DNA from: an uncultured Acidobacteriota bacterium
GTDB taxonomy: Bacteria; Acidobacteriota; Terriglobia; Acidiferrales; UBA7541
DNA length: 64,000 nt
Reading direction: 5' to 3'
Assembly (NCBI GenBank): GCA_963748865.1
Contig: CAVVLE010000050.1
Coordinates: forward strand, 148,360 to 212,359
Part shown: positions 232 through 60,953 of the stretch, piece by piece
How the letters are laid out: every line of letters begins with the position of its first letter
Numbering within the stretch: the first letter of the stretch is position 1
Notes under the pieces: generated by a model
Seen by the model: the letters and a program-made list of their open reading frames with translations, nothing else
Databases searched by the model: none
Told to the model about the DNA's origin: nothing
Position numbers and translations under genes: made by a program

Positions 232-275
232 CGGTCGCTCTGCGATTTTTCCAGCGCCTGTCGCGGCGGTTCATC

Positions 276-3200: not shown

Positions 3201-3482
3201 GTCCACGATCAAGCTGGTGGTCGAGTTGCCGGTGGCATTCAGCGAATACATGTAATTCATGTTGTCCACGCCGTTCATCTGTTGCTCGATGGGAGTGGCA
3301 ACCGACTGCTCCAGGGTTTGCGCATCCGCTCCGATATAGGTCGCAACAATTTGAATCTCGGGCGGAGCGATGTTGGGAAATTGCGCGACGGGCAAACTCA
3401 GTATGGTGAGGCCGCCGACAATCACCAGGACAATGGAAATCACCATGGCGACGATGGGGCGATTGATAAAAAACTTTGACAT
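276..3482 (-). pseudogene. RND (AcrB/HAE1-type) inner-membrane efflux permease, interrupted by three +1 frameshifts
   Basis: Four consecutive minus-strand ORFs together read as one AcrB-like protein: 2226..3482, 1577..2323, 271..1656 and 276..980. The recognisable stretches are MSKFFINRPIVAMV..., ...GFSINTLSLFGLVLAIGLVVDDAIVVVE..., ...FVTFKPWDERTS... and ...LAALYESWTLPFSVLL...AKNAILIVEFA... The frame changes at about 2351-2356, at the A6 run 1601-1606 and at about 874-879. Removing one base at each site gives ...LLAVPVSLVGTFILFPVFGFSI..., ...SYNSTFFVTFKPWDE... and ...SFQEQKAGKEFPPSVIFGL... Confidence 0.85.
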
Positions 3483-24907: not shown

Positions 24908-25220
24908 AGCCCCATTATAGAACCGACCGACCGACTTGATGGCTCAAGATCGTCGAATTTAATGGATTCGATTCGTCATTACCGGTCGAGCTGGGGCTTC
25001 TATCCCGGAGGCCTTCCAGTCTGGGGGCGGGATTCGAACTTTTAGGGCTCTTCGAAAGGGAACTGGCTGCTCATCGGTAGAGAATGTCGTCCGCTCTCCC
25101 CGCCCGCAGTAACTCGAATGCGAACTGAGAGATCCAGCGCGTCGCAAATGGCCGCAGAAATGAGCCGAAAATGACGGCTTCGGGCCAGTTCGCTCTACTG
25201 CCTAGGCAAGTGTTGACTAC

Positions 25221-25415
25221 ATGGCGGAGGAGCCAGTCACGAGCGAACCATTCTCCGCGCAAAAGATCAGGGAAAAATACTGGGAAAGATGCCGCCACCG
25301 AGAGGCTCTCGGGCCCGACGAATGGCGGAATCCTGCTGTAGTGCCTGCGGTTATAAGCACGACGGGGAATTTGCCCGACTATTCGAACAGGGAATTACAG
25401 GGATTTGATCAGGGA
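25221..25415. repeat. dispersed mosaic repeat family 2, copy A
   Basis: Three blocks are shared with 57670..57809. ATGGCGGAG.AGCCAGTCACGA and GAATGG..GAATCC...GCCTGCGGTT are shared in the same orientation. A 63-nt module (25353..25415) matches the reverse complement of 57747..57809 at 59 of 63 positions by hand count. Confidence 0.8.
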
Positions 25416-26013
25416 CGGCCTCCGCTGGAACAACGCTAGCGATCGACGCGAAAGAAGTCGAGCGCAAGCCCTTCGAGAGACGACTAGTCACGGATTCTCC
25501 TCCACAGGGCCTCATTGTAAACTCATTGATTCTCGCTAATGCATTCTGTTGGGTGGCTTTGACAAGTTGTACGCCGGGGTCTGGTTTGTGCATTTCAGCT
25601 AGACCGGACGGAAGGGTGTCTTGCTTGGCGAAGGCGAAGGCGCAAGTTTCCGCAACCGTCCTCTCGTCGCGCTCCACATTGCGGCCTACGGCCAGGACCG
25701 ATTTTTTTTCTCCTCAAGATCGCTCCGCATGAGTCATACGAATGGTGCGCCGCAGAGCTTGCTTTAGGTTGCCCGCAATGGTTACGATGCCGCAAGTAAA
25801 GGGCAAAAAGCCTGTTCGGACGCACCTAACCGGTCCGGCAAGACTCCAACGCCCACCGGCGGCGAATGCCTGCGCAAATCCACGCTATCCGCTGACGGCC
25901 GAGGTGCAAGTAACCGACGTGCGTCGCTCCCCGCTCTCCCTCGACTGCACCAGGGAAGAAGATAGGGGCGTTGGAGTTCCGTCTCGAGCAGCGCTGAAAC
26001 ACAAGAACTGGGT

Positions 26014-26862
26014 TTGCCGATGAATTCGTACATCCGGCCGACAACGCTACAGGAAGCCGTGCACGCACTCGGGGAAACGCGCGGCATCGTGCTCTCGGGC
26101 GGCACGGATTTCTTTCCCGCCCGCGTGGACAGGCCGATCACCGAGCCCGTCATTGATATTTCTGGCGTCCGAGAGTTGAAGGGCGTGTCAGTCGAGGCGG
26201 ATCGCGTGGTCATCGGCGGCAGGACGACGTGGAGCGAAATCGTTGCGAGCAATCTTCCCCGAGGGTTCGCCGGGCTAAAAGCCGCGGCGCGGGAAATCGG
26301 CTCGATTCAGATACAGAATTTCGGCACCGTGGCGGGAAATTTGTGCAATGCATCGCCCGCCGCCGACGGCGTGCCACCGTTGCTGGCGCTGGATGCCGAA
26401 GTGCGGCTTGCTTCGACGACGGGCACGAGGATGCTGACGCTTGGCGAGTTCATCCTAGGCAACAGAAAAACGGCGCGGCGCACGGATGAGATTTTGACGA
26501 GCGTCGCAATTCCGCGGCGGCTCGAAGCCGCCGCATCATCATTTCTCAAACTCGGCGCGCGGCGGTATCTGGTAATTTCCATCACGATGGTTGCGGTGAC
26601 GATCCTCGCGGACGATCGCGAGCGCGTGGCTGAAGTACGGGTCGCTGTCGGCTCATGCTCGGAGCGAGCGATGCGATTGACGGCGCTCGAAGAAACGCTC
26701 GTCGGCGCAAGCGCTCGACCGGGACTGGGGAAAACCGTTATGGAGAAGCATGTCGAAGCGCTTTCGCCGATTGACGACGTCCGCGCGACGGCTGCGTATC
26801 GCCGCGATGCGTCGCTCACGCTGATCGAACGCGCGCTGGAAGCTTGCGTGGGGGCCGCATGA
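26014..26862 (+). CDS. molybdenum hydroxylase FAD-binding subunit (CoxM/XdhB-type, FAD_binding_5)
   Basis: The ORF encodes 282 aa. Recognisable stretches are LSGGTDFFPA, GGRTTWSEI, IQNFGTVAGNLCNASPAAD and a C-terminal CO_deh_flav_C-like ...DDVRATAAYRRDASLTL. Its stop overlaps the next start as ATGA. Confidence 0.85.
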   Translation: MPMNSYIRPTTLQEAVHALGETRGIVLSGGTDFFPARVDRPITEPVIDISGVRELKGVSVEADRVVIGGRTTWSEIVASNLPRGFAGLKAAAREIGSIQIQNFGTVAGNLCNASPAADGVPPLLALDAEVRLASTTGTRMLTLGEFILGNRKTARRTDEILTSVAIPRRLEAAASSFLKLGARRYLVISITMVAVTILADDRERVAEVRVAVGSCSERAMRLTALEETLVGASARPGLGKTVMEKHVEALSPIDDVRATAAYRRDASLTLIERALEACVGAA

Positions 26863-29681
26863 ACGCGCAAGTGGGATCGCCGACCGCCGTTCTCACGGTG
26901 AATGGCAATCAGGTGGCGATTCACGCGCCGCCGATTCACCGGCTTTCGCGAGTTCTTCGCGACGAGCTCGGATTGACAGGAACGAAAGTCGGTTGTGACG
27001 CGGGCGATTGCGGCGCGTGCACGGTACTCATTGACGGGAGGGCCGCGTGCTCATGCCTGATCGCCGTCGGGCAACTCGACGGTGCCGAAGTCACGACGGT
27101 GGAAGGGCTGGGGCGCTTCTCCCGGAGATTCGAGAGCTTGAAACGCGCATTTCTCGAGCACGGCGCTGCGCAGTGCGGGATTTGCACGCCCGGCATGCTC
27201 GTCGCGGCCACGGCGCTGCTGGAATCGAATCCCGGTAACGGCAGCGCAGCGAAAGAGTCGGCTGCGCGTGAGCAGCGCGGGAAGCTTGACGAAATGCAGG
27301 TGCTAGATGCGCTCGGCGGCGTGCTGTGTCGTTGCACGGGCTACCGGAAGATTGTCGTTGCGGTACTCGATGCCGCGAACGGAGCGGCCGGGCAGCCCCG
27401 GGCGCCCGCGACCAGCGCGGTTGGCGGGCGAGTGGCGCGGGTGGATGGCGGGCGCAAAATCGCTGGCACGGAAATCTACGGCGCAGACGAAGCGCCCGCC
27501 GACGCGCTCTGGCTGCGGGTGGTTCGCAGCCCGCACGATCGCGCGCGATTCCGTTTCGGGGATCTCGAGGGGTTCGTTGCCAATCATCCTGGAATTCATG
27601 CGGTGTTTACCGCGAAGGACGTGCCGGGCAAAAATTGCTACGGCGTAATTCCAGATTGCGCCGATCAACCGGTGTTCGCGGAAGGCGAATCGCGATTTCG
27701 AGGAGAAGCCGTGGCGGCGATTGCCGGAGACGCGGGCGCCATCGCCGCATTTGACTCGGCGAGCTTTCCGGTAGCGTGGGAAGTGTTGCCGGCGCTTCGG
27801 ACGATTGAAGACGCGCTGGACGCGAATGCGCCACTCGTGCACGAGAAGCGTCCAGGCAACGTGCTCGTCCGCGGGCGCGTGGTGCGCGGCGACGTGGAAG
27901 CGGCGCTCGGGCAATCGGACGTGGTCGCTAGCCTGGAGATCGAAACCGGTTTTGTCGAGCACGCGTGCATCGAGCCCGAAGCCGGATTCGCGCGGCGAGT
28001 GGGCGAACGGATCGAGGTCCAATCTTGCACGCAGGCGCCGTACATGGCGCGCAAGGATATCGCGGCCATTCTCGGCATTGACGAACGCGCGGTGCGAATC
28101 CTCCCGACGGCAGTCGGCGGCGGATTTGGGACGAAGCTCGATCTCTCCGTGCAGCCATTTCTCGCTGTCGCGGCGTGGCGCCTGCGGCGACCGGTGCGCA
28201 TGACGTACTCGCGGCCGGAGTCCATCATGGCGACGACGAAGCGGCACCCGGCGCGCGTCCGCGCTTGTGCAGGAGCGAAGCACGACGGCACGCTGCTTGC
28301 GATGGATTTTCAAGCGGACTTCAACACGGGAGCGTATGCATCGTGGGGGCCGACAGTGGCGTATCGGGTCCCGATTCACGCGTCGGGGCCGTACAAGGTG
28401 CCAAACTACCGGGCACGGACGCGTGCGATTCACACGCATCTGGTTCCTGCTGGCGCGTTCCGCGGATTCGGCGTGCCGCAGGGAACCGTAGCGCAGGAAC
28501 AGCTCTATGACGAACTTGCCGAAAAGCTAGGCATGGACGCGCTCGAATTCCGAATCCTGAACGCTCTGGACAATGAAAGCCCGACCGTGACGGGGCAAAT
28601 CTTCGGTAGTGGCGTGGGAATCCGCAAGTGCTTCGAAGCGCTACGCGAAAAATGGGCAGCGGCGCGGGCGGAGGCCAAAGCAGCGAACAGGTCAGCGAAA
28701 GGGCCAGTTCGCCGCGGTGTGGGCGTCGCGGGAATGTGGTACGGCTGCGGAAACACATCGTTGCCAAACCCTTCGACGATGCGCGTCGGCCTGAAGCGCG
28801 ACGGGCGGATCGCACTGCACCAAGGCGCCGTGGACATCGGCCAAGGTTCCGCGACGGTAGTGACGCAAATCTGCGCGGAGGCGGCCGGCGCGCCGATGGA
28901 GAACTTCGATCTTCTTCCGGCGGACACAGATCTGACGCCGGACTGCGGGAAAACGTCGGCATCGCGGCAAACGTTTGTCTCGGGCAAAGCGGCGAGCCTC
29001 GCCGGTACGGAATTGAGAAAGGCAATATTGCGGCTCGGGAAAGCCCGCGATTGCGCGCGAATCGAATTCGGCAAGAGCGAGATTGGGATTGAAGAGCGCG
29101 GCGCAAGGCGAACGATTTCGCTTCGCGAGCTGCCTGTTGATGCGCATGGTTACGTGGCGTCGGCCGAGGCGACATTCGACCCCCCGACGAGCCCGCTCGA
29201 TGCCGACGGCCAGGGAAACCCGTACGCGGTTTATGGTTTTGGTGCGCACATGGCGGAAGTCAGCGTGGATCTCGAGCTGGGCACAGTGCGTGTGCTGAAA
29301 ATTGCCGCGGCGCACGACGTGGGCCGCGCCATTAATCCGACACTTGTCGAGGGCCAAATCGAAGGTGGCGCGGCGCAGGGGCTGGGCTTCGCATTGATGG
29401 AAGAGTTCTTCCCCGGCAAAGGCGAAAATCTGCACGACTACCTTATTCCGTCGGCCGGCGACGTCCCTCCCGTCGATTCCATCCTGATCGAAGATCCATC
29501 GCCAATCGGCCCGTTCGGCGCGAAAGGCGTCGGCGAACAAGCCCTGATTCCCACGGCGCCTGCGATTCTGAACGCAATTCGCCACGCGACCGGAGTCCGC
29601 ATCCGGAGGATTCCCGCCACACCCGAGCGCGTGCGCGCGGAGATTCTCGTCGCAGCAAAAACTGAGGTGCACGATGCCTGA
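26859..29681 (+). CDS. molybdenum hydroxylase with fused [2Fe-2S] small subunit and molybdopterin-binding large subunit; context suggests nicotinate dehydrogenase
   Basis: The ATG at 26859 gives MNAQVGSPTAVLTVNGNQV... The first 2Fe-2S motif is GCDAGDCGACTV. The second cluster reads GAAQCGICTPGM...CRCTGY. An aldehyde-oxidase/XDH a/b-hammerhead and Moco domains follow (...GGGFGTKL...GQG...AHDVGRAINP...EGQIEGGAAQG...). The substrate assignment is inference from neighbouring genes only. Confidence 0.85.
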   Translation: MNAQVGSPTAVLTVNGNQVAIHAPPIHRLSRVLRDELGLTGTKVGCDAGDCGACTVLIDGRAACSCLIAVGQLDGAEVTTVEGLGRFSRRFESLKRAFLEHGAAQCGICTPGMLVAATALLESNPGNGSAAKESAAREQRGKLDEMQVLDALGGVLCRCTGYRKIVVAVLDAANGAAGQPRAPATSAVGGRVARVDGGRKIAGTEIYGADEAPADALWLRVVRSPHDRARFRFGDLEGFVANHPGIHAVFTAKDVPGKNCYGVIPDCADQPVFAEGESRFRGEAVAAIAGDAGAIAAFDSASFPVAWEVLPALRTIEDALDANAPLVHEKRPGNVLVRGRVVRGDVEAALGQSDVVASLEIETGFVEHACIEPEAGFARRVGERIEVQSCTQAPYMARKDIAAILGIDERAVRILPTAVGGGFGTKLDLSVQPFLAVAAWRLRRPVRMTYSRPESIMATTKRHPARVRACAGAKHDGTLLAMDFQADFNTGAYASWGPTVAYRVPIHASGPYKVPNYRARTRAIHTHLVPAGAFRGFGVPQGTVAQEQLYDELAEKLGMDALEFRILNALDNESPTVTGQIFGSGVGIRKCFEALREKWAAARAEAKAANRSAKGPVRRGVGVAGMWYGCGNTSLPNPSTMRVGLKRDGRIALHQGAVDIGQGSATVVTQICAEAAGAPMENFDLLPADTDLTPDCGKTSASRQTFVSGKAASLAGTELRKAILRLGKARDCARIEFGKSEIGIEERGARRTISLRELPVDAHGYVASAEATFDPPTSPLDADGQGNPYAVYGFGAHMAEVSVDLELGTVRVLKIAAAHDVGRAINPTLVEGQIEGGAAQGLGFALMEEFFPGKGENLHDYLIPSAGDVPPVDSILIEDPSPIGPFGAKGVGEQALIPTAPAILNAIRHATGVRIRRIPATPERVRAEILVAAKTEVHDA

Positions 29682-31137
29682 GGATACCATTCGCTGCGAC
29701 GCGTGCCCCGTTCTCTGCTACATCAAGCGGGGCATGACCGGAGCGTGTGATCGCTACGCAAATCACGACGGCCTTCTCGTGCGCGTGGACCCGCAGGCGA
29801 TGCTCGATCGCGCGAGATCGCACGGCACGCCGCTCGTCCGGTTTCTCGGACCCGATCGGGACTGGGACGGGCGGCTCGTGAAAGGGCCCGAAACATTCGT
29901 GACCGCCATTGGCGCGGGCACGACGTATCCCGATTACAAGCCCGCACCGTTCATTGTGTCTTCGATAGTCGAAGGCGTGGATATAGTGACGGTCGTGACC
30001 GAGGGGATCTTCAGTTATTGCGGCGTGAAAGTAAAAATTGACACCGACCGGCACCTCGGGCCGGAAAGAAATCTCGTGCGGGCACAAGGCGAGCCGGTCG
30101 GACACGTCACCACCGGAGAGTACGGCTCGCAAATGCTCTCGCTCGGCGGCGTGAAACATCTCACGGGCGGCACGAAGAAGGAAGGTCGAGTCACGTGCGA
30201 GACGCTGCTCGATTTGTGCAACCAGAAGCCGGTGGAATTGGCGATTGACGACGGCGCACGCGTGATCGTCGAGGCCGGAAAGCCGCCTATCGTGAACGGC
30301 ATGCTCGAAGCGCGTATGCGCGTAGGATGCGGCTCGGCGACGATCGGCATGTTCGCGCGGCAGTGGTTCGGCAAAGTGGACGAAGTCGTGGTCGTGGACG
30401 ATCACATCACCGGCGTGCTGTCCGAACATCAGGCCGGAAAACTTCTAGGCGTGCGGGATACCGGCATTCGGATCAAGGGCCGGCGCTCGACGCCGGGGAG
30501 ATATTTTCAAGTCGCGGAGCCCGGAACCGGCTGGGGCGGCACGGACATCAGCGATCCGCTGTCCATCCTGGATGCATTCAAGCCCAGGATTGCGTGGCCG
30601 CGGCTGCGGCTGCTGATGGTCAGTACGACAGGCGAACAATATGCATACTACGAGCTCGACGAAGACTTGCGGCCCGTAGCACGCGAGTTGCCGGATCAGC
30701 TGGTCGAGTCCGTCGAGCGAATCCGGGAGAATTGTGAACCGGCGCTTACGACGGTTCTCTTCATGGGCGGCGCGGGAGGATCGCTACGCGCGGGAGTGAC
30801 GGACAATCCGGTGAAGCTGACACGTTCGGTGAAGCATAATTTTACGCGAGTGACATGCGGCGGCGCACCGGTCTACGTATGGCCCGGAGGCGGGATCACC
30901 TTCATGGTGGACGTAACGCGAGTGCCCGAAAACGGATTCGGCTATGTGCCGACGCCCGCGCTGGTCGCGCCTATCGAATTCACGCTAAAGCTCGAAGACT
31001 ACGCCGTGCTCGGCGGCCACATGGACTACGTCCGGCCGCTCAGCGAGATCGTGGGTAGCGATCGCCGGCTTCAAACATCGCCGCACGAGAAGCCGTCGCC
31101 ACTGCGGGCGATCTCGTTAGGGGACGCGGAATCATGA
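29674..31137 (+). CDS. 6-hydroxynicotinate reductase-like iron-sulfur protein
   Basis: The ORF encodes 487 aa. The N-terminal Cys cluster is IRCDACPVLCYIKRGMTGACDRYAN. From memory this matches proteins annotated as 6-hydroxynicotinate reductase, which co-occur with UPF0280 and amino-acid-synthesis-family genes. It overlaps the upstream stop by 8 nt and the downstream start by ATGA. Confidence 0.6.
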   Translation: MPEDTIRCDACPVLCYIKRGMTGACDRYANHDGLLVRVDPQAMLDRARSHGTPLVRFLGPDRDWDGRLVKGPETFVTAIGAGTTYPDYKPAPFIVSSIVEGVDIVTVVTEGIFSYCGVKVKIDTDRHLGPERNLVRAQGEPVGHVTTGEYGSQMLSLGGVKHLTGGTKKEGRVTCETLLDLCNQKPVELAIDDGARVIVEAGKPPIVNGMLEARMRVGCGSATIGMFARQWFGKVDEVVVVDDHITGVLSEHQAGKLLGVRDTGIRIKGRRSTPGRYFQVAEPGTGWGGTDISDPLSILDAFKPRIAWPRLRLLMVSTTGEQYAYYELDEDLRPVARELPDQLVESVERIRENCEPALTTVLFMGGAGGSLRAGVTDNPVKLTRSVKHNFTRVTCGGAPVYVWPGGGITFMVDVTRVPENGFGYVPTPALVAPIEFTLKLEDYAVLGGHMDYVRPLSEIVGSDRRLQTSPHEKPSPLRAISLGDAES

Positions 31138-32049
31138 GAGAACCGCCGGTAGTTCGCTTCCTTCCTGACGAGCGCCGATTGCACCTGCACGACGGCCCGA
31201 TTGATCTTATAATCGAAGCATTCGGGAAGCCGAGCGAGATCGAGACCGCATATCGCGCGGCGGCGCGGCGATTCATCACCGTGCTCGACGAATTGTGCGA
31301 AGAGCTGCAGCTTCTGCGGTCGGAGGCGCGCGCGGACGGCCCGATGCCAAAAGGGCAAGTCGCGCGGAGGATGGCAAAAGCGGTCGCGCCCTTCGCGCGC
31401 GAGGCATTCATCACGCCGATGGCCGCGGTGGCCGGCAGCGTCGCGGAAGAAATTTTGGACGCGATGATGCAGGCCGCTTCGCCTTCGCGCGCCTACGTGA
31501 ATGACGGCGGGGACATCGCGATTCATCTTTCGGCCGGCGAATTTATTCGAATCGGCATGATCGAGCGGCCGGATCGTCCATCGTTGCTCGGTATGGTTCT
31601 GCTCCGCGCCGAGCGACGTATCCACGGAGTTGCGACGAGCGGTTGGCGCGGACGAAGCTTTCTCTCTGGGAATCGCAGACGCCGTCACGGTTCTTGCGGA
31701 TCGCGCAGCGATGGCTGACGCCGCCGCTACCATGATCGCAAACGCGGTGGATTTGCCCGGCACCGCGCGATTACTCGCGTTCCGGCGCGCGATATCGCTC
31801 CGGACAACGACCTCGGCGCGCACCTCGTGACTCGCGGGGTGGGTGAACTTACCGCGCGCGACATCGATACCGCGCTCGATTCGGGCGCCGCAACCGCCGA
31901 GAATTATGTCGCTGAAGGGCTAGTCTGCGCCGCGGCGATTTGCCTTCAGAAAGAGACTCGAATCGTCGGATTGCGAGATGCCAATCCGCAATTGATCATC
32001 GCCGGGGCGGAGGATTCGGCGAGGAGAGTCGGCGGTTGCCGGAAGTTAA
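31134..32049 (+). pseudogene. UPF0280 (ApbE-like fold) family gene, disrupted by two internal indels and with its stop lost to a third indel
   Basis: Frame 0 reads MREPPVVRFLPDERRLHLHDGPIDLII...GVATSGWRGRSF. The frame then shifts to +1 for SLGIADAVTVLADRAAMADAAATMIANAVDLPG, which is the family's conserved core. It returns to frame 0 for HRAITRVPARDIAPDNDLGAHLVTRGVGELT...AAICLQKETRIVG... A natural TAA at 32047-32049 is reached only if one base near 32045 is removed. Confidence 0.6.
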
Positions 32050-32622
32050 GAGTTCGAAAACTCGCGACTCTCGTGGAGGAAATTCTTCACGAAGGTGGGC
32101 CCATGCCCTCGATACCTCCTGCGGCGCGCGGCCGTACTGGCGGCGATTTCAAATCCCTTTGCCGGGTCGTATGTCGCTGAAATCACTTGGTTTATGGATG
32201 AGCTAAAGCCACTCGGACTTGAGATGTCGAAGACTCTCGTCGCGGCGCTGGGAGGCGACCGGCACGAGATCGAAGGATATGGCAAGGGCGCGATTGTGGG
32301 CGCGGCCGGCGAACTCGAGCATGGAGCACTGTGGCACGTTCCCGGAGGGTATGCGATGCGCGAGATCCTCGGAGGCGCGAAAGCCATCGTGGCTTCGTCG
32401 AAGAAAGTTGGAGGCCCGGGAGCGCGGCTCGACGTCCCAATCACACACATCAACGCGTCATACGTTCGCAGTCATTTCGATTCGATGGAGGTCGGATTGG
32501 CGGACGCGCCGCGCGCGGACGAAATTCTGCTCGCACTGGTGATGACAACGGGGCCGCGCGTTCACGCTCGCGTCGGCGGCCTCAAGGCTTCGGAGATCAA
32601 AGGAGAGGATGGCTTGCGATGA
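32036..32622 (+). pseudogene. amino acid synthesis family (PF06684/DUF1185-like) gene, copy 1, with two +1 indels near the 5' end
   Basis: The body, LLRRAAVLAAISNPFAGSYVAEI...SSKKVGGPGARLDVPITHINASYVRSHFDSMEV...KGEDGLR, is co-linear with the intact paralog at 32619..33215. The N-terminal part (LRVRKLATLVEEILHEGGP) is in another frame. The only plausible start is the TTG at 32036, with AGGAG 9 nt upstream, and it is in a third frame. Confidence 0.6.
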
Positions 32623-33215
32623 CGGCGGCGCGGAAAGCGAAAATCCGGAAGCTGGTCACGTTCGTTGAAGAGACCCGAAACGAAATGGGACGAGCGATCG
32701 ATCCACCGACGCGGCGCGCCGCTGCGCTCGCCGTGATCGAAAATCCGTACGCGGGAAAATTTGTCGAGGACTTGAGCGAGCTAATGGAGATCGGAGAAGA
32801 GTTGGGCGGCGTCCTAGCACAACGCGCCGTGGCTGCGCTGGGCATTCCGGGCGCGGCGGTTGAGAGCTATGGCAAGGCCGCGGCGGTCGGCGAGAACGGC
32901 GAAATCGAGCACGCGGCGGCGGTTCTGCACCCGAAGCTTGGCGCACCGGTGCGAGAAACTCTGGGCAAAGGCGCCGCGCTCATTCCCTCCTCGAAGAAGT
33001 GCGGAGGGCTCGGCGTCACGCTCGACGTTCCTCTCGGACACAAAGACGCAGCGTTCGTGCGCAGCCACTTCGACGGCATGGAAGTGAGAATCAACGATGC
33101 GCCGCGCGCGAACGAGATCATCGTTGCGGTCGCCGTAACCGACAGCGGACGCCCACTCGCGCGGGTCGGCGGGTTGAAGAAAGAAGAAATCAAGGGCGAA
33201 GACGGCTTGCATTAG
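32619..33215 (+). CDS. amino acid synthesis family (PF06684/DUF1185-like) protein, copy 2
   Basis: The ATG at 32619 overlaps the previous stop as ATGA. The sequence begins MTAARKAKIRKLVTFVEETRNEMGRAIDPPTRRAAALAVIENPYAGKF and continues ...SSKKCGGLGVTLDVPLGHKDAAFVRSHFDGMEV...KGEDGLH. It is 198 aa, the typical family size. Confidence 0.75.
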   Translation: MTAARKAKIRKLVTFVEETRNEMGRAIDPPTRRAAALAVIENPYAGKFVEDLSELMEIGEELGGVLAQRAVAALGIPGAAVESYGKAAAVGENGEIEHAAAVLHPKLGAPVRETLGKGAALIPSSKKCGGLGVTLDVPLGHKDAAFVRSHFDGMEVRINDAPRANEIIVAVAVTDSGRPLARVGGLKKEEIKGEDGLH

Positions 33216-33262
33216 AGATCGAGCGCGCGCAACATGAGGGCGATTTCGAATGACTCGGGGGA
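33180..33262. repeat. left copy of an ~84-nt direct repeat bracketing the nicotinamidase gene
   Basis: This copy covers the last 10 codons of the gene at 32619..33215 (KEEIKGEDGLH-stop) plus 47 nt downstream. By hand alignment it matches 34016..34099 at about 71 of 84 columns. Confidence 0.8.
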
Positions 33263-33400
33263 CACCTGAAGCGCGCAAACGCTGCCGCGCCGGGCTTGCG
33301 AAGCCGCCGGAGCGCTACCGGCAGTCTTTGAAACGCTGCTCGGGACTCAAGGAGCGCGTAAGCCGCGCGAAGGCGAAGTAACTGTCCGCAGGGCGGATCG

Positions 33401-34009
33401 ATGGCTTCCAAATCGGTAGTCTTTTGGGAGGTTGATGCGCAGCGCGATTTCATGCTGCCGGGCGGCGCGCTGTATGTGCCTGACGCCGAGAAAATCCTTC
33501 CGAATCTGAAGCGCCTCGTCGATGCAGCGAACGCAGGACGCGTGTTTTTGGTGTCGAGCGCCTGCCAGCACGCGCCGGATGATCCGGAGTTTAAATCATT
33601 CGGGCCGCACTGCATTCGCGGCACGTTCGGCGCGGAGATTGTCATCGAGGGGCTGACCAGCGATTTCTTCCGCATTCCCAGCGCGCAGAATTTCACTTGG
33701 CCTGACGACTGGAATCGGCGTCATCAAGTCATTTTCGAAAAGCAGCAGCTCGATGTCTTCAGCAATCCGCAAGCTGCGGTGCTGGTCGAGAAGCTGGGCT
33801 CGGATGTGCAGTACGTTGTGTTCGGAGTGGTGACGGAGTATTGCGTGAACCAGGCTGCGCGCGGCTTACTTGAACGCGGAAGAAAAGTTGCCGTGGTGAA
33901 AGATGCAATCGAGACGCTCAAGCCGCAAGAAGGGCAACGAACACTGAATGACCTCGCGGCGGACGGCGCTCGCCTGATTACCACAGATGAGGCACTCGCT
34001 CTAATCTGA
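33401..34009 (+). CDS. isochorismatase-family cysteine hydrolase, nicotinamidase-like
   Basis: The ORF encodes 202 aa. The Asp motif is FWEVDAQRDFMLPGGALYV. An H..D metal/substrate region (ACQHAPDDPEF...GPHCIRGT) is present, and the catalytic Cys lies in VVFGVVTEYCVNQAARG. Placement next to nicotinate-pathway genes supports a nicotinamidase role, which remains inference. Confidence 0.7.
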   Translation: MASKSVVFWEVDAQRDFMLPGGALYVPDAEKILPNLKRLVDAANAGRVFLVSSACQHAPDDPEFKSFGPHCIRGTFGAEIVIEGLTSDFFRIPSAQNFTWPDDWNRRHQVIFEKQQLDVFSNPQAAVLVEKLGSDVQYVVFGVVTEYCVNQAARGLLERGRKVAVVKDAIETLKPQEGQRTLNDLAADGARLITTDEALALI

Positions 34010-34015
34010 GTCGAA

Positions 34016-34099
34016 AAAGAAGAAATCAAGGACGAAGACGACGTGCAGTAGTGATCGAGCGGGCGCAGCACGAGGCGCGATTTCAAATCACTCGAGGAA
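34016..34099. repeat. right copy of the ~84-nt direct repeat bracketing the nicotinamidase gene
   Basis: It contains a decayed copy of the amino-acid-synthesis gene terminus (EKEEIKDEDDVQ-stop). It also contains the genuine 3' end of the enamidase-like gene on the opposite strand (...LPRVI-stop). Confidence 0.8.
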
Positions 34100-35243
34100 G
34101 CCTCGTTGGGGGCGGCGTGTTGCGGCTTCGCTCGGAACGCACGGTGCCATCAATCACAGTCATTCCAATTCCGGGCAAGTCGCCCAGGCGAACGCTTTCC
34201 AAGAGTGATTTTCCCGCCGAATGCTGCGCGCAATCCAGAAAAACGAAATCGGCAGCTCGTCCCGGCTCGATCAATCCGCAGTCGAGCTTTCGCGCTTTGG
34301 CGGTATTACCTGTGGCGAAGCAGAACGCAATTTCCGCCGAAATGTCGCCTAGCGATGAAAGCATCGAAATCAGCCGAATGATTCCGAGAGGCTGAACGCC
34401 CGATCCTGCTGGCGCATCAGTGCCGAGAATCACGCGATCGAGATGGTTCAGTTCCTTCGCGAGACGCAGGGTGAGAAGTGCGGCTCGCTCGTTGCCGTTG
34501 TGAACGATTTCCAGGGCTCGCGGCGATTGCTCACACAGTGCCCGAATTTGATTGTCGGGGAGTGCCGTGTGACCGCCGTTGATGTGACCGATGATGTCGG
34601 CATCCGCCGCAAGAACAATGTCCTTGTCGATCAGGCTCGAACCGGGAATGGAAGGCCCGCCGGTGTGAATCGTGCTTTGAATGCCGTATTTGCGTGCCCA
34701 CGCTACCATTTGCCGGGCAGTCTCGCCATCTTTCACGCTGCCGAGTCCAACCTCGCCGAGCAGCTTAACCCCGGCATCGGCGAGCGATTGAAAGTCTTCT
34801 TCGACCATGCCGTGCTCGATCACCGGGGCGCCAGCGTGAACCTTTACGCCGCTGGGACGCAGGGCGGCAAATGAACGCTGGGCGGTGATCGCCATGGCCT
34901 TCACGCCGACGACATCCTTCGGGCGTCCCGGTGTATGCACTTCTCCCGCCGAAATCATAGTGGTCACGCCGCCGTGCAGGCAGCTGTCAATCCAGCCAAC
35001 CTGATTCTGGCGCGGCGTCCAATCGCCAACAACCGGATGAACGTGACTGTCAATCAAACCCGGGGCAATCGCGCAGCCATTTGCATCGATCGTGGTCGTT
35101 GCGTCGGACGTGTCCAAGTCTTTTTCGTTGCCAACGGCTAAGATTCTGCCATTTACGGCGATGAGGGTGTCGGCTTCGAAGATCGGCCGCGCCAGATCGC
35201 CACTGAGGACTAGGCCGAGGTTGACGATTACCAGTTTCGTCAT
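34083..35243 (-). CDS. enamidase-like amidohydrolase (1,4,5,6-tetrahydro-6-oxonicotinate hydrolase-like)
   Basis: The ORF encodes 386 aa. The metal-binding HxH is PGLIDSHVHP. Other conserved stretches are GGVTTMISAGEVHTPGRPKD, GEVGLGSVK, HTGGPSIPGSS, GHINGG and LGTDAPAGSG. From memory it is co-linear with, and the same length as, Eubacterium barkeri enamidase (PDB 2VUN). Confidence 0.75.
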   Translation of the reverse strand: MTKLVIVNLGLVLSGDLARPIFEADTLIAVNGRILAVGNEKDLDTSDATTTIDANGCAIAPGLIDSHVHPVVGDWTPRQNQVGWIDSCLHGGVTTMISAGEVHTPGRPKDVVGVKAMAITAQRSFAALRPSGVKVHAGAPVIEHGMVEEDFQSLADAGVKLLGEVGLGSVKDGETARQMVAWARKYGIQSTIHTGGPSIPGSSLIDKDIVLAADADIIGHINGGHTALPDNQIRALCEQSPRALEIVHNGNERAALLTLRLAKELNHLDRVILGTDAPAGSGVQPLGIIRLISMLSSLGDISAEIAFCFATGNTAKARKLDCGLIEPGRAADFVFLDCAQHSAGKSLLESVRLGDLPGIGMTVIDGTVRSERSRNTPPPTRLPRVI

Positions 35244-35365
35244 GAAGGCGTCTTCGTGGCCAAGTCGTGAGGCATGCGATTCTTCTCCTCACCGGCCGCC
35301 GTTGCATTGCCGGAAGCGCTGCTCGGCTGAATTTGTATACAAACGTGCGAAAGAGAGCAACTTGA

Positions 35366-35590
35366 TTATTTTAACTTTTCAACGTCCTGCTCGGCCAGGA
35401 CCGGCACGTGCTCAGGATTCATTTCGAAATCCCAGTTCGCAGCCCAGATCGTAAGCTCAAAGTCTTCAGCTTCGGGAAGAAGTTGCCTAGGGGCCTCTTC
35501 AGTTGATTCCGGTGACGCAGCCGGTTCCGTGAGAACTAGCTCAGCCAACATCCTGGCTGCAGCAAAACTGGTTTGCTTGCAGCGCGGCAC
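35366..35590 (-). CDS. hypothetical 74-aa acidic ORF (weak)
   Basis: No domain is recognised. Its first ~17 codons are built from the repeat-family-1 insertion sequence and no clear RBS is visible. It is listed only because gene callers might call it. Confidence 0.25.
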   Translation of the reverse strand: MPRCKQTSFAAARMLAELVLTEPAASPESTEEAPRQLLPEAEDFELTIWAANWDFEMNPEHVPVLAEQDVEKLK

Positions 35591-35660
35591 GAGCTAAGTC
35601 AGCGGCCCGACTTCGGGATGCGCACTACTCAACCGCGATCTTCGTGCCGTGCTGACTAGG
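35540..35660. repeat. dispersed repeat family 1, copy 2, with a 48-nt internal insertion
   Basis: The left arm at 35540..35551 and the core at 35600..35660 match copy 1. They are separated by 48 extra nt (35552..35599). The insertion contains a 10-bp stem-loop, CTGCAGCAAA/TTTGC(T)TGCAG, at 35557..35582. Confidence 0.8.
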
Positions 35661-35873
35661 CTCAGAAAAAACTGGTCAGCAAGACAGCAGGAACAGATTT
35701 GCCCACCAGACCCGACTTCTTCGACCTTTTTTCAACAGCCTTGTTATGAAAAGGACCAACCAATTGTCTGTATAAGCGGAGCTTGTGTGTCTCGCCACGG
35801 CTCGGTAACCGATCAGTGCCAAGGAAATGGCCGTGAGCGACATGCCGTCAAGCCGCCGCCGGGCATTGACCGA

Positions 35874-37808
35874 ATGGAGGTGCAAGTGAGCATCGCACAA
35901 CAGAAAGCGCGGTCCCCCCAATGGACTGGACGATCGCCGAGGCTTTTGGTTTTTCTATCGACATTAGTGGTCATTGCGATGGTCCGGGCCTCAGCGAGCG
36001 GCGGTTCCGCCGAAATGGATTCACCGCGCGTGATCGTTGGGTCCAATATGTTGGTGAGCCGGGACGGAGACATTCCGCACGTGGAGTTAAGCGTGGCGTC
36101 AAATCCGCAGGATCCCAATAATCTTGTCGGCGCATCGATTACGGCAACGCGCCTGGAAGGCGGGTGGGCGTGCAAGGTCTATTCGTCCCACAACGCCGGA
36201 GATTCGTGGGCGGATGCGGTGGTGCCCGAGCAACATATTAATGGAGGCGGAGATCCGCAAGTGGCGTTCGGGCCAAACGGAACGGCGTATTTCGCAGCGC
36301 TCGGCGCGATGAAAGATTCCAAAGGGCGGGACCGCGATGGGCTGTTTGTCTATCGCTCTGAGGATGGCGGCACGACCTGGCACAAGCCCGTGAATCTGGG
36401 ACCAGGGTATGACCACGACGTAATGGCCGTCGATGAGAGCGCCGGGCGGTTCGCTGGACGTATATACATTTCGATTCTTTACGGCTATCCGGTGTATCGC
36501 CTTGGTGTGTTTCGGTCCGACGATGACGGGCGGAGTTTTTATGGCCCCGCCGAATCGGCAAATGGCGGCGGAAAGCTGGGGATCAACACGGCCGCGAATA
36601 TCTTGATTCTGTCGGACGGAACGCTGGTGATTCCGTACGAGGACTTTGAGTTTTTGCCTGAAAAAGTGAAAGAAAGCCACACCCAGAATGTCTGGATTGT
36701 CTCATCGAGTGATGGAGGCGTGACGTTTGCGGCTCCACGCAAAATCGGAACGCAGGAAAGCAACAAAGCTCCCGATGCGCCGATGATCATGACCTTCCCA
36801 AGTTTCGCAGCTGACAACCGTTCGGAAGCCTATAAAGATCGCATCTACAGGGCTTGGACGGATTTCCGCGACAACGAATATCGCGTCTGGTTTTCCTTCT
36901 CGAAAGATCGCGGGACTACCTGGTCGGAACCGAGGAAGATCGACGACAGCGTTGCGAAAGGCACTTGGCAATATCAGCCAATGCTGGCAGTGAACTCGAA
37001 CGGTGTCGTAGGTCTCAGTTGGTTCGACACGCGTGCGAGCAACGATAACCGCGTGTACGATGAGTACTTTGCCGCCTCGCTTGACGGGGGCGATACCTTC
37101 TTGCCGCCGACGCGCGTTTCGTCAGAACATTCTGCATTTCCAGGCAAAGGAAATCTTGCGACCTATCCGGGCGCGTGGAGCTATAAGGGCGAGATTCGGT
37201 TGACATTTTTGTCCGCTGCCAGCCGCTGGCCGATGGGTGGAGACTACATCGGGTTGGGGGTTGATGCGGATGGAAACTTTCATCCGTTCTGGCCTGACAA
37301 CCGGACAGGAACTTCGCTGATCGAAACGGCAACGGTTCGCGTCGAAGGAGCGCCGAAGAATCGTTCGGCGGCCGCCGACGAAAGTGAAGAGGCACCTCCG
37401 GCCCCACCCTCCAAGCCGCACCTGGCGCAAACGGACGTGACGTCGCGGCTCGAGCTTGTGTTTGACCCGGCGAATTTTGATCCGGCGTCCGGTGAGCTGG
37501 AGCTGAGAGTCCGCCTCAAGAACGTCTCCAATCAGATTGTCTATGCGCCGATTGTGGCGACAGTTCAGAGTTTTGGGAGCGGCATGGGCGAAGAAGAAAG
37601 AGAAAACAGCCCGAAGATTCAGAACGCCTCGAACGGCATGGCGGGCGCGGGAGCTACATTCAGTTTCGATCCAGCGCTGGGGGACTCACAACAAATCCCG
37701 CCCGGAGGAGTTTCCGGAGCAGTGATGATGAAGCTGCAACTTTCAAAACCCCTGCGGACTCCCGACATGCACCTCCGGCTGAGCGGATCTCTCGCCGAAG
37801 CCAAGTAG
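35874..37808 (+). CDS. exported BNR/Asp-box repeat protein (sialidase-like beta-propeller)
   Basis: The likely start is the ATG at 35874 (MEVQVSIAQQ...LLVFLSTLVVIAMVRASA, a signal peptide); the ORF itself extends to 35649. Six Asp-box-like motifs are present: SHNAGDSW, SEDGGTTW, SDDDGRSF, SSDGGVTF, SKDRGTTW and SLDGGDTF. Confidence 0.8.
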   Translation: MEVQVSIAQQKARSPQWTGRSPRLLVFLSTLVVIAMVRASASGGSAEMDSPRVIVGSNMLVSRDGDIPHVELSVASNPQDPNNLVGASITATRLEGGWACKVYSSHNAGDSWADAVVPEQHINGGGDPQVAFGPNGTAYFAALGAMKDSKGRDRDGLFVYRSEDGGTTWHKPVNLGPGYDHDVMAVDESAGRFAGRIYISILYGYPVYRLGVFRSDDDGRSFYGPAESANGGGKLGINTAANILILSDGTLVIPYEDFEFLPEKVKESHTQNVWIVSSSDGGVTFAAPRKIGTQESNKAPDAPMIMTFPSFAADNRSEAYKDRIYRAWTDFRDNEYRVWFSFSKDRGTTWSEPRKIDDSVAKGTWQYQPMLAVNSNGVVGLSWFDTRASNDNRVYDEYFAASLDGGDTFLPPTRVSSEHSAFPGKGNLATYPGAWSYKGEIRLTFLSAASRWPMGGDYIGLGVDADGNFHPFWPDNRTGTSLIETATVRVEGAPKNRSAAADESEEAPPAPPSKPHLAQTDVTSRLELVFDPANFDPASGELELRVRLKNVSNQIVYAPIVATVQSFGSGMGEEERENSPKIQNASNGMAGAGATFSFDPALGDSQQIPPGGVSGAVMMKLQLSKPLRTPDMHLRLSGSLAEAK

Positions 37809-40302: not shown

Positions 40303-40304
40303 GT

Positions 40305-42899: not shown

Positions 42900-42942
42900 C
42901 GATTCGGTGGCAAACGTCTCGCGCGGCCTTCTTGTCGCCGGC

Positions 42943-45417: not shown

Positions 45418-45522
45418 GAGCGCCTCCCTTGGAACGCACTTCGACCGGTCCAGCGGTTCGCGGATCGTTTCTAATTCTGCAGCGAGGCAACGGCTTTCGC
45501 AGGAACCCTTTCGCGCTAAGTG

Positions 45523-47790: not shown

Positions 47791-47800
47791 ATCGGCCCCA

Positions 47801-60950: not shown

Positions 60951-60953
60951 GGA

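What the first reader, a model, noticed from the sequence alone, without database searches (positions are those of the whole stretch)
26014..35243. Reductive (Eubacterium barkeri / Azorhizobium-type) nicotinate catabolism module in an apparent Acidobacterium
**Seen in the sequence**
- A tightly overlapped plus-strand operon encodes an FAD subunit, a fused 2Fe-2S/Moco hydroxylase, a 6-hydroxynicotinate-reductase-like Fe-S protein, UPF0280 and two amino-acid-synthesis-family genes.
- The gene junctions are ATGA, ATGCCTGA, ATGA and ATGA.
- A nicotinamidase-like gene follows, then a convergent 386-aa enamidase-like amidohydrolase.

**Established knowledge**
- In E. barkeri the pathway is nicotinate to 6-hydroxynicotinate (Mo hydroxylase), then to 1,4,5,6-tetrahydro-6-oxonicotinate (HnR), then to 2-formylglutarate (enamidase).
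- Azorhizobium uses the same early steps aerobically.

**Inference**
- This block encodes nicotinamide to 2-formylglutarate.
- The UPF0280 and PF06684 genes that always travel with hnr-like genes have no assigned role in the pathway.
- The downstream genes (2-hydroxymethylglutarate dehydrogenase and later steps) are not in the window.
Basis: partly seen in the sequence, partly recalled or inferred. Interest (0 to 1): 0.62.

Follow-up and report, generated by a model that had tools for sequence, protein, structure and literature searches.

The report
Nicotinate breakdown gene cluster, Acidobacteria
This is a soil Acidobacterium's copy of the known gene cluster that turns vitamin B3 (nicotinate or nicotinamide) into 2-formylglutarate; the call is correct but not new, and two of its genes are frameshifted in this sequence, probably through assembly errors.

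Summary
The 386-aa amidohydrolase matches E. barkeri enamidase end to end. The Fe-S protein is 41% identical to E. barkeri 6-hydroxynicotinate reductase (Hnr). Both halves of the molybdenum domain score far higher against E. barkeri nicotinate dehydrogenase than against any other solved Mo hydroxylase.

UPF0280 and PF06684 genes lie inside the characterised E. barkeri cluster itself. UPF0280 followed hnr in 66 of 66 related metagenome loci, and PF06684 lay nearby in 41 of 42.

Three corrections apply:
- **Broken genes.** As written, UPF0280 and the first PF06684 gene carry five single-base indels. Short-read contigs of a ~96% identical strain lack all five. I favour assembly error over pseudogenes.
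- **Shorter Hnr.** It lacks the N-terminal two-[4Fe-4S] ferredoxin domain of the E. barkeri enzyme.

New leads: UPF0280 has an ApbE flavin-transferase fold and is always coupled to hnr. PF06684 tracks the enamidase gene.

The parts
26014..26862 (+). FAD-binding subunit of the Mo hydroxylase (NdhF equivalent). The start is probably the ATG at 26020, which gives 280 aa.
   Evidence: PF00941 at 135 bits and PF03450 at 54 bits. 35% identical to E. barkeri NdhF. Relatives encode 280 aa.
26859..29681 (+). Single polypeptide fusing the 2x[2Fe-2S] domain with the whole Moco domain. It corresponds to NdhS+NdhL+NdhM and is the predicted nicotinate 6-hydroxylase.
   Evidence: Five Pfam domains. The best solved relative for each Moco half is E. 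barkeri nicotinate dehydrogenase: 248 and 233 bits, against 170 bits or less for other specificities. No NCBIfam equivalog of another specificity reaches its cut-off. The start overlaps the FAD gene stop as ATGA.
29674..31137 (+). 6-hydroxynicotinate reductase homologue (Hnr), short form without the N-terminal 2x[4Fe-4S] ferredoxin domain.
   Evidence: 41% identical over 467 aa to the E. barkeri hnr ORF. Invariant C8, C11, C15, C25, C219 and C354. No room for an upstream extension. JGI names homologues 6-hydroxynicotinate reductase. No Pfam match, no PDB sequence match and no PDB fold match.
31134..32049 (+). UPF0280 (ApbE-superfamily) gene, broken as written by indels at 31662 (+1), after 31757 (-1) and 32033 (+1). 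A stop falls in frame at 31716-31718.
   Evidence: The repaired product is 304 aa. A hand-made read-through scores 399.6 bits against NF003322, cut-off 290. A homologue model matches PDB 2O34, then only ApbE/Ftp/FmnB flavin transferases.
32036..32622 (+). First PF06684 (AA_synth/DUF1185) gene with a TTG start, broken as written by +1 indels at 32052 and 32120.
   Evidence: The repaired product is 194 aa. A read-through scores 229 bits against PF06684. 76-87% identical to intact genes in related loci.
32619..33215 (+). Second PF06684 gene, intact. It is the orthologue of the single copy in the E. barkeri cluster.
   Evidence: PF06684 at 252 bits. PDB 2QTP at 288 bits and 3BYQ at 124 bits. 55% identical to the E. 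barkeri ORF next to ena.
33401..34009 (+). Nicotinamidase-like cysteine hydrolase of the isochorismatase family.
   Evidence: PF00857 at 82 bits. Best PDB match is P. horikoshii pyrazinamidase/nicotinamidase 1ILW/1IM5, E 1e-17, with the Asp, Lys and Cys positions aligned and the zinc-ligand Asp position occupied by Cys (residue roles from memory). Homologues of 52-60% identity occur in 16 of 33 related loci that hold ena.
34083..35243 (-). Enamidase homologue (Ena), convergent with the operon.
   Evidence: 2VUN at 371 bits, E 6e-110, residues 1-385. The HxH, GEVGLG, HTGG, HINGG and DAP motifs are conserved in the alignment. 45% identical to the E. barkeri ena ORF.
30600..32190 (.). Patch where the window departs by about 3-4% from the haplotype seen in short-read contigs. 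All five frameshifting indels of the block lie inside it.
   Evidence: Outside the patch, contigs of runs X1-X4 match with 0 gaps and 0-11 mismatches per piece. Inside it they show 15-47 mismatches and 7 gaps. In the Hnr part, 10 of 12 listed substitutions are at third codon positions (my count).

Best explanation
The block is the upper module of the reductive (E. barkeri / Azorhizobium type) nicotinate pathway in a member of the Acidobacteriota (Terriglobia, Acidiferrales-like).

**Inferred order of reactions**
1. The isochorismatase-family enzyme deamidates nicotinamide to nicotinate.
2. The two-gene Mo hydroxylase (an FAD subunit plus a fused 2Fe-2S/Moco protein) hydroxylates nicotinate at C6.
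3. Hnr reduces 6-hydroxynicotinate to 1,4,5,6-tetrahydro-6-oxonicotinate (THON).
4. Enamidase opens the ring, giving 2-formylglutarate and ammonia.

Homology and conserved gene order are shown here. The chemistry is carried over from the characterised E. barkeri enzymes and was not tested.

**The two families without an assigned role**
- They are core parts of the module, not passengers.
- UPF0280 is always translationally coupled to hnr and has an ApbE flavin-transferase fold. The most likely role is a cytoplasmic maturation factor for Hnr, possibly installing its covalent flavin.
- The PF06684 proteins track ena and most likely act at the enamidase step. This guess is weaker.

**The frameshifts.** The five single-base indels in UPF0280 and PF06684-1 are more likely consensus errors of a long-read assembly in a low-coverage strain patch than real inactivating mutations.
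For: **Assignments**
- Ena: 371 bits, full length, to 2VUN, with conserved motifs.
- Hnr: 41% identical over 467 aa to the E. barkeri ORF. That ORF sits in the published cluster: LysR, hnr, UPF0280, hgd-like, ndhFSLM with subunit lengths 425 and 330 aa matching PDB 3HRD, transporter, ena, PF06684, then B12 mutase, PrpF, PEP-mutase-family and aconitase-family genes.
- Hydroxylase: nearest to nicotinate dehydrogenase by 78 and 90 bits over the next solved enzyme.

**Synteny**
- The same order occurs in Acidiferrales genomes L001-L003.
- In 80 metagenome loci found through Hnr: UPF0280 adjacent in 66 of 66, PF06684 within 4.5 kb in 41 of 42, the Moco gene directly upstream on the same strand in 41 of 47, and ena present in 22 of 27 loci with at least 7 kb downstream.
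- In 24 loci found through Ena alone, hnr-UPF0280 and ena-PF06684 are the conserved pairs.

**Nicotinamidase.** The catalytic positions align. Homologues sit at three different positions around the cluster.

**UPF0280.** Foldseek ranks 3-41 are all ApbE/Ftp/FmnB. The invariant D195-x3-T199 aligns with the ADAWDT segment of E. coli Ftp.

**Literature.** The Proteobacterial cluster carries the first three steps plus two conserved unknown proteins, and strain SG-6C, which has the cluster, degrades nicotinate via 6-hydroxynicotinate (PMC3511419).

**Indels as errors**
- All five are absent from short-read contigs in four runs.
- The repaired ORFs are full length.
- The AcrB-like gene at 271-3482 is also split, with single-base differences in the same direction.
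- A relative from a long-read-style assembly has a split Moco gene.
Against: - No activity data exist for this organism or any Acidobacterium.
- Identity to the characterised enzymes is only 35-45%.
- Hnr lacks the ferredoxin domain of the characterised enzyme, so its electron donor is unknown.
- The nicotinamidase-like protein is far below the NCBIfam PncA cut-off (41.7 against 174 bits). A Cys sits where the P. horikoshii enzyme has a zinc-ligand Asp.
- The canonical ApbE target motif D-x-x-[S/T]-G-A-[S/T] (PMC12052999) is not present in Hnr.
- UPF0280 has a gap where E. coli Ftp has the SHVIDPQTG segment. From memory, that segment holds the catalytic His. The hhalign alignment behind this is weak, E 0.18.
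- The exact window haplotype with its indels was not found in any public run, so real pseudogenes cannot be excluded.
- No downstream route for 2-formylglutarate is in the window.
Confidence: 0.8

Rival explanations
1. The module is a recently inactivated remnant in this strain. The five indels are real, UPF0280 is truncated at 194 aa, PF06684-1 is unreadable, and the pathway is impaired or lost.
For: The indels are in the sequence as given. They cluster in a 460-bp stretch, while the other long ORFs checked (apart from the split AcrB-like gene) are intact. They are not in long homopolymers. They lie in a truly different haplotype with mostly third-position substitutions. The MarR regulator found upstream in relatives is absent.
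Against: The repaired proteins are full length, without stops, and strongly conserved, which leaves little time for decay. The nearest strain lacks all five indels in four independent runs. A second, unrelated gene in the window shows the same kind of single-base breaks. The other six genes of the block are intact.
Confidence: 0.25
2. The cluster degrades a different N-heterocyclic carboxylate or carboxamide (for example another pyridine or pyrazine carboxylate) by the same hydroxylate, reduce, hydrolyse logic, rather than nicotinate itself.
For: Only 35-45% identity to the characterised enzymes. No NCBIfam equivalog is matched. A second amidohydrolase of about 469 aa recurs inside related clusters. 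The nicotinamidase-like protein has an unusual metal-site residue.
Against: All five conserved partners co-occur from Firmicutes to Acidobacteria. Proteobacteria whose Hnr is about 42% identical to the E. barkeri enzyme, as here, grow on nicotinate via 6-hydroxynicotinate (PMC3511419). The hydroxylase is clearly closest to nicotinate dehydrogenase.
Confidence: 0.12
3. The Mo hydroxylase is a generic xanthine, aldehyde or CO dehydrogenase that merely sits next to unrelated hydrolase genes.
For: Whole-protein searches rank D. gigas aldehyde oxidoreductase first, because the E. barkeri enzyme is split into separate chains. The top NCBIfam rows are selenium-dependent xanthine dehydrogenase and an aldehyde oxidoreductase, both below cut-off.
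Against: Scored half by half, nicotinate dehydrogenase wins by 78 and 90 bits. The gene overlaps hnr (ATGCCTGA) and lies directly upstream of hnr in 41 of 47 loci.
Confidence: 0.03

Closest known systems
Eubacterium barkeri nicotinate fermentation cluster (Alhapel et al. 2006; genome locus L004 here)
   Same: It has NDH, Hnr, Ena, UPF0280 and PF06684 homologues (35-55% identity). The hnr-UPF0280 overlap and the link between PF06684 and ena are shared.
   Different: - The window fuses NdhS, NdhL and NdhM into one protein, where E. barkeri has three genes with a split Moco subunit.
- The window Hnr lacks the 2x[4Fe-4S] domain.
- PF06684 is duplicated in the window.
- The window has no hgd, B12 mutase, PrpF isomerase, lyase or aconitase-type genes.
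- A nicotinamidase-like gene is added.
- The host is probably aerobic (inference from its lineage).
Azorhizobium caulinodans / Bradyrhizobiaceae nicotinate cluster (PMC3511419, Fig. 4; Kitts et al. 1992)
   Same: [quoted passage not shown] The pathway runs via THON.
   Different: [quoted passage not shown] I could not see the Proteobacterial sequences, so equating their two unknown proteins with UPF0280 and PF06684 is an inference. The phylum differs.
ApbE / Ftp / FmnB FAD:protein FMN transferases
   Same: UPF0280 shares the fold. The NxGGD, ATSG and D-x3-T segments align. It is encoded next to its presumed flavoprotein client.
   Different: - It has no signal peptide or lipobox (by inspection).
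- There is no Pfam ApbE hit at E 0.01 or better.
- The segment that holds the catalytic His in Ftp is missing in the alignment.
- The client lacks the D-x-x-[S/T]-G-A-[S/T] motif.
DUF1185 / PF06684 structures BB2672 (3BYQ) and SPO0826 (2QTP)
   Same: The window's second copy scores 288 bits to 2QTP. [quoted passage not shown]
   Different: That paper proposed amino-acid metabolism from ABC-transporter neighbours. The context found here is nicotinate catabolism next to enamidase.

Membership tests
E. barkeri-type nicotinate upper pathway (NDH + Hnr + Ena) | Xanthine-dehydrogenase-family Mo hydroxylase closest to nicotinate dehydrogenase | tested here: met
   248 and 233 bits to 3HRD chains A and B, against 170 bits or less for other specificities. 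The domain set is complete.
E. barkeri-type nicotinate upper pathway (NDH + Hnr + Ena) | Moco subunit split into NdhL and NdhM, giving a four-subunit enzyme | tested here: not met
   One 940-aa protein carries the FeS domain and both Moco domains. E. barkeri has separate ORFs of 164, 425 and 330 aa.
E. barkeri-type nicotinate upper pathway (NDH + Hnr + Ena) | Full-length homologue of 6-hydroxynicotinate reductase | tested here: met
   41% identity over 467 aa, E 1e-90, with about 100 invariant columns across both clades.
E. barkeri-type nicotinate upper pathway (NDH + Hnr + Ena) | N-terminal 2x[4Fe-4S] ferredoxin domain on Hnr (ferredoxin-dependent enzyme, EC 1.3.7.1) | tested here: not met
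   Absent from the window and from all 80 soil loci. Present, with PF00037-type hits, on the Firmicute type.
E. barkeri-type nicotinate upper pathway (NDH + Hnr + Ena) | Enamidase homologue with conserved metal-site motifs | tested here: met
   2VUN at 371 bits over residues 1-385, with HxH, GEVGLG, HTGG, HINGG and DAP conserved. Assigning these motifs as metal ligands rests on general amidohydrolase knowledge.
E. barkeri-type nicotinate upper pathway (NDH + Hnr + Ena) | Downstream fermentation genes (hgd, dehydratase, B12 mutase, isomerase, dimethylmalate enzymes) | tested here: not met
   None is in the 64-kb window. They are present in L004.
E. barkeri-type nicotinate upper pathway (NDH + Hnr + Ena) | Conversion of nicotinate to 6-hydroxynicotinate, THON and 2-formylglutarate | not testable with these tools
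   Needs enzyme or resting-cell assays.
Proteobacterial (Azorhizobium-type) nicotinate cluster | First three steps, plus two conserved unknown proteins, plus an ABC transporter | tested here: inconclusive
   The three enzymes and two unknown families are present. No ABC transporter is adjacent. The description comes from PMC3511419, and the Proteobacterial sequences were not compared.
ApbE flavin transferase (for UPF0280) | ApbE fold | tested here: met
   A homologue model (pLDDT 77) matches 2O34, then 39 ApbE/Ftp/FmnB chains, with probability about 1 and TM 0.3-0.45. PF27030 is recorded on homologues.
ApbE flavin transferase (for UPF0280) | Client carries the D-x-x-[S/T]-G-A-[S/T] flavinylation motif | tested here: not met
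   Hnr has only the invariant G80-A-G82-T83 and G220-S221-A-T223. The motif is taken from PMC12052999.
ApbE flavin transferase (for UPF0280) | Catalytic His loop and Mg-binding D-x3-T | tested here: inconclusive
   D195 and T199 are invariant and align with ADAWDT of E. coli Ftp. The SHVIDPQTG segment falls in a gap. The alignment is weak, E 0.18.
Nicotinamidase PncA | Isochorismatase fold with the Asp-Lys-Cys triad | tested here: met
   PF00857 at 82 bits. D12, the Lys of EKQ and the Cys of TEYCV align with the P. horikoshii enzyme. Residue roles are from memory.
Nicotinamidase PncA | Asp-His-His metal site, and a score above the curated family cut-off | tested here: not met
   Cys replaces the Asp (ACQH against RDWH). 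NF008623 scores 41.7 bits against a cut-off of 174.
PF06684 (AA_synth / DUF1185) | Full-length match above the gathering score | tested here: met
   252 bits for copy 2 and 229 bits for the repaired copy 1, against a cut-off of 27.

The most novel reading that the evidence does not exclude
UPF0280 may be a cytoplasmic, non-canonical member of the ApbE superfamily dedicated to maturing Hnr. It would install the reductase's covalent flavin at a site unlike the known D-x-x-[S/T]-G-A-[S/T] motif.

PF06684 hexamers may work with enamidase on the labile enamine or 2-formylglutarate product.

In the soil-type cluster, the ferredoxin-domain-less Hnr may take its two electrons directly from the co-translated Mo hydroxylase. 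Nicotinate to THON would then be a redox-neutral, self-contained conversion.
Probability: 0.3. Interest if true: 0.65.

Novelty: new member of a known kind. Interest (0 to 1): 0.36.

Why it matters
**Ecology.** The cluster is very common in soil data. Reductive nicotinate or nicotinamide breakdown is therefore probably a widespread trait of soil Acidobacteria.

**Biochemistry.** The strict pairings hnr-UPF0280 and ena-PF06684 give two long-unassigned families (UPF0280/COG2122 and DUF1185) a concrete, testable job.

**Enzymology.** The short Hnr raises the question of where aerobes get the electrons for ring reduction.

**Annotation.** The PF06684 name "amino acid synthesis" appears to rest only on neighbouring ABC-transporter genes and is probably misleading.

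Tried and rejected
- **Regulatory RNA upstream.** Rfam gave no match over the whole window at gathering scores, or over 24850-26100 at E up to 1.
- **Promoters and terminators.** The scans found nothing above shuffled expectation.
- **MarR regulator.** Relatives have one upstream, but tblastn found none in the window. The 93-aa ORF at 25742-26023 has no Pfam match.
- **Fold of Hnr.** The model (pLDDT 77) has no PDB match with E below 0.02, so nothing is learned about flavin or substrate sites. The region around T83 is low confidence.
- **Independent evidence for the indels.** No public run holds the exact haplotype of 31590-32180; the best share of words was 0.24. The window's Hnr is not on record in the assembly index.
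- **Primary papers.** Alhapel 2006 and Kitts 1992 are not held. Statements about the covalent flavin and cluster content of Hnr, and about the Azorhizobium downstream route, are therefore from memory.
- **Literature on UPF0280.** No papers were found.
- **Rejected idea.** PF06684 as a 2-formylglutarate decarboxylase: E. barkeri keeps the gene, although, from memory of Alhapel 2006, it reduces rather than decarboxylates that intermediate.
Full report
**What is in the sequence**

The block 26014-35243 holds eight genes.

| Coordinates | Strand | Product |
|---|---|---|
| 26014-26862 | + | FAD subunit (PF00941, PF03450) |
| 26859-29681 | + | 940-aa protein with two [2Fe-2S] domains, the a/b hammerhead and both Moco domains |
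| 29674-31137 | + | 487-aa protein with no Pfam or NCBIfam match (Hnr-like) |
| 31134 onward | + | UPF0280 gene |
| up to 32622, then 32619-33215 | + | two PF06684 genes |
| 33401-34009 | + | isochorismatase-family gene |
| 34083-35243 | - | 386-aa amidohydrolase, convergent |

**The flaw in the observation**

- UPF0280 and the first PF06684 gene are not open as written. The ORF from 31134 ends at 31718, and the remaining conserved protein sequence is spread over other frames.
- Alignment with intact relatives and with short-read contigs of four soil-metagenome runs locates five single-base differences. The window has an extra base at 31662, 32033, 32052 and 32120, and lacks one after 31757.
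- Undoing them gives a 304-aa UPF0280 and a 194-aa PF06684 protein with no stops. These are the lengths in relatives. The two genes then overlap by 14 nt, as in the relatives.
- A hand-made read-through of UPF0280 scores 399.6 bits against NF003322, cut-off 290. The PF06684-1 read-through scores 229 bits.

**Are the indels real?**

- Across 25000-36500, the short-read contigs match the window almost perfectly and without gaps, except in about 30600-32190.
- In that patch they differ by 3-4%, and all the gaps fall there.
- In the Hnr part of the patch, 10 of 12 listed substitutions are at third codon positions. The patch is therefore a true alternative haplotype, not noise.
- No public run holds this haplotype.
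- An AcrB-type gene at 271-3482 (-) is also split into three ORFs. Short-read contigs there also lack single bases at about 861, 1600 and 2355.
- A relative from an assembly with Flye-style contig names has a split Moco gene.

I read this as a long-read consensus that is error-prone where a minor strain diverges. I put about 70-75% on artefact. Real, very recent pseudogenes remain possible.

**Tests of the interpretation**

- *Enamidase.* PDB 2VUN matches at 371 bits, E 6e-110, over residues 1-385. The next hit scores 29 bits, and the HxH, GEVGLG, HTGG, HINGG and DAP motifs are conserved.
- *Locating the E. barkeri cluster.* I used the 2VUN sequence to fetch the E. barkeri VPI 5359 locus, L004. 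Its gene content is the published cluster:
  - LysR regulator, hnr, UPF0280 and a 3-hydroxyisobutyrate-dehydrogenase-family gene;
  - ndhF, ndhS, ndhL and ndhM, where the 425- and 330-aa products match the 3HRD chain lengths;
  - a transporter, ena and PF06684;
  - then a B12-binding mutase, a PrpF isomerase, a MutL-like protein, a PEP-mutase-family lyase and aconitase-family genes.
- *Identities of the window proteins to the E. barkeri ORFs.*

| Protein | Identity |
|---|---|
| Hnr | 41% over 467 aa |
| Ena | 45% |
| NdhF | 35% |
| NdhS | 41% |
| NdhL | 35% |
| NdhM | 41% |
| UPF0280 | 33% |
| PF06684 | 55% (copy 2), 46% (copy 1) |

- *Naming.* NCBI names a 100%-identical fragment of the L004 hnr ORF 6-hydroxynicotinate reductase. 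JGI gives the same name to many close homologues of the window protein.
- *Hydroxylase specificity.* A whole-protein search ranks aldehyde oxidoreductase first, only because the E. barkeri enzyme is deposited as separate chains. Scored half by half, nicotinate dehydrogenase is best by wide margins: 248 against 170, 148 and about 133 bits, and 233 against 142, 138, 133 and 129 bits. No NCBIfam equivalog of another specificity reaches its cut-off.

**Linkage of the unassigned families**

- In 24 loci recovered through Ena alone, mostly Firmicutes, hnr is followed by UPF0280. PF06684 directly follows ena even where hnr lies elsewhere, as in L004, L010, L011 and L012.
- In 80 metagenome loci recovered through Hnr:
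  - UPF0280 directly follows hnr in 66 of 66 loci with enough sequence;
  - PF06684 lies within 4.5 kb in 41 of 42 (two copies in 36, one in 5);
  - the Moco gene lies directly upstream on the same strand in 41 of 47;
  - ena is present in 22 of 27 loci with at least 7 kb downstream;
  - a homologue of the nicotinamidase-like gene (52-60% identity) is present in 16 of 33 loci that hold ena.
- The nicotinamidase-like homologue appears in three different positions: divergent from ena, divergent from the hydroxylase operon, or, as in the window, between PF06684-2 and ena.
- These 80 loci are one clade (73-89% identical Hnr), so the counts are not phylogenetically independent. The Firmicute set and the literature supply breadth.

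**What the extra genes may do**

- *UPF0280.* A model of an intact homologue (pLDDT 77) matches PDB 2O34, then only ApbE/Ftp/FmnB flavin transferases at ranks 3-41.
  - Its invariant D195-x3-T199, NxGGD and ATSG segments align with E. coli Ftp. The segment holding the Ftp His loop falls in a gap, and the alignment is weak.
  - From memory of the Alhapel et al. 2006 abstract, E. barkeri Hnr carries a covalently bound flavin, one [2Fe-2S] and two [4Fe-4S] clusters. The paper is not held.
  - A dedicated cytoplasmic flavin-attachment role for UPF0280 fits this.
  - However, Hnr lacks the canonical ApbE target motif.
- *PF06684.* The JCSG structures 3BYQ and 2QTP show a chorismate-mutase-like hexamer with a conserved His cluster. 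The amino-acid label came only from neighbouring ABC-transporter genes. Its attachment to ena suggests a role at the ring-opening or deamination step. This is a guess.

**Differences from the E. barkeri model**

- The window Hnr has only the C8/C11/C15/C25 motif. It lacks the N-terminal ferredoxin domain found on all Firmicute-type and one Deltaproteobacterial homologue. None of the 80 soil loci has that domain.
- The hydroxylase is two genes rather than four.
- PF06684 is duplicated.
- A nicotinamidase-like gene is added. Its best PDB match is the P. horikoshii enzyme. The triad positions are conserved, and a Cys replaces the zinc-ligand Asp.
- No downstream genes occur in the window. The rest encodes efflux systems, glycogen phosphorylase, phosphoglucomutase, a two-component pair, MacB, an ArsA/Get3 ATPase, a BNR protein, four S9 peptidases, an outer-membrane barrel and a subtilase.

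**Comparison with what is known, and verdict**

- The cluster type is documented outside Firmicutes. [quoted passage not shown] It also shows nicotinate degradation via 6-hydroxynicotinate in SG-6C.
- The nearest homologues of the window proteins carry Acidiferrales, Terriglobales and Sulfotelmatobacter names, which places the window in Acidobacteriota, class Terriglobia.
- The finding is a correct identification of a new phylum-level member of a known pathway module.
- Its added value lies in the testable roles for UPF0280 and PF06684, and in the ferredoxin-less Hnr.

Noticed in passing
window 271-3482 (-): An AcrB/RND efflux gene is split into three ORFs (2226-3482, 1577-2323 and 271-1656). 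Short-read contigs of related strains lack single bases at about 861, 1600-1607 and 2355. This is the same kind of break as in the nicotinate block.
   Followed up: partly
window 30600-32190: A patch of about 1.6 kb differs by 3-4% from the haplotype in runs X1-X4, while the flanks are essentially identical. Substitutions in the Hnr part are mostly at third codon positions. It could be a recombination tract or a minor strain captured by the assembler.
   Followed up: partly
window 24908-26013: A 1.1-kb stretch upstream of the operon has no convincing ORF, no Rfam match and no MarR gene. Relatives L001-L003 carry a MarR regulator at this position.
   Followed up: yes
L053, L054, L059, L065, L071, L091, L100 and L105, between PF06684-2 and ena: A second amidohydrolase of about 469 aa (PF01979 with a HutI-like composite domain in the two copies scanned, L065 and L091) recurs inside related clusters and is absent from the window. 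Its substrate is unknown.
   Followed up: partly
window 37858-51226 (-): Four tandem S9 (prolyl-oligopeptidase family) peptidase paralogues with PD40 propeller repeats sit next to a 1141-aa outer-membrane barrel with a CarboxypepD_reg domain. This looks like a peptide-uptake and degradation locus.
   Followed up: no
window 5751-13085 (-): A very long ORF of 2444 aa was not analysed.
   Followed up: no
window 58336-62270 (+): Three consecutive HlyD-family membrane-fusion genes, followed by a further 434-aa ORF.
   Followed up: no
L001 7235-10008: In this relative, from a 3.3-Mb contig, the fused FeS/Moco gene is called as two overlapping genes (718 and 213 aa). This is probably another frameshift in a long-read-style assembly.
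   Followed up: no
window 29674-31137 (the Hnr family in general): A reasonably confident model (pLDDT 77, pTM 0.73) has no structural neighbour in the PDB (best E 0.03). The reductase family appears to have no solved representative.
   Followed up: yes
L002/L003 16643-20732 (-): A second, three-gene Mo hydroxylase (FAD, Moco and 2Fe-2S subunits) lies about 3 kb beyond ena in these relatives, together with DJ-1/PfpI and HAD genes. It is not present in the window.
   Followed up: no
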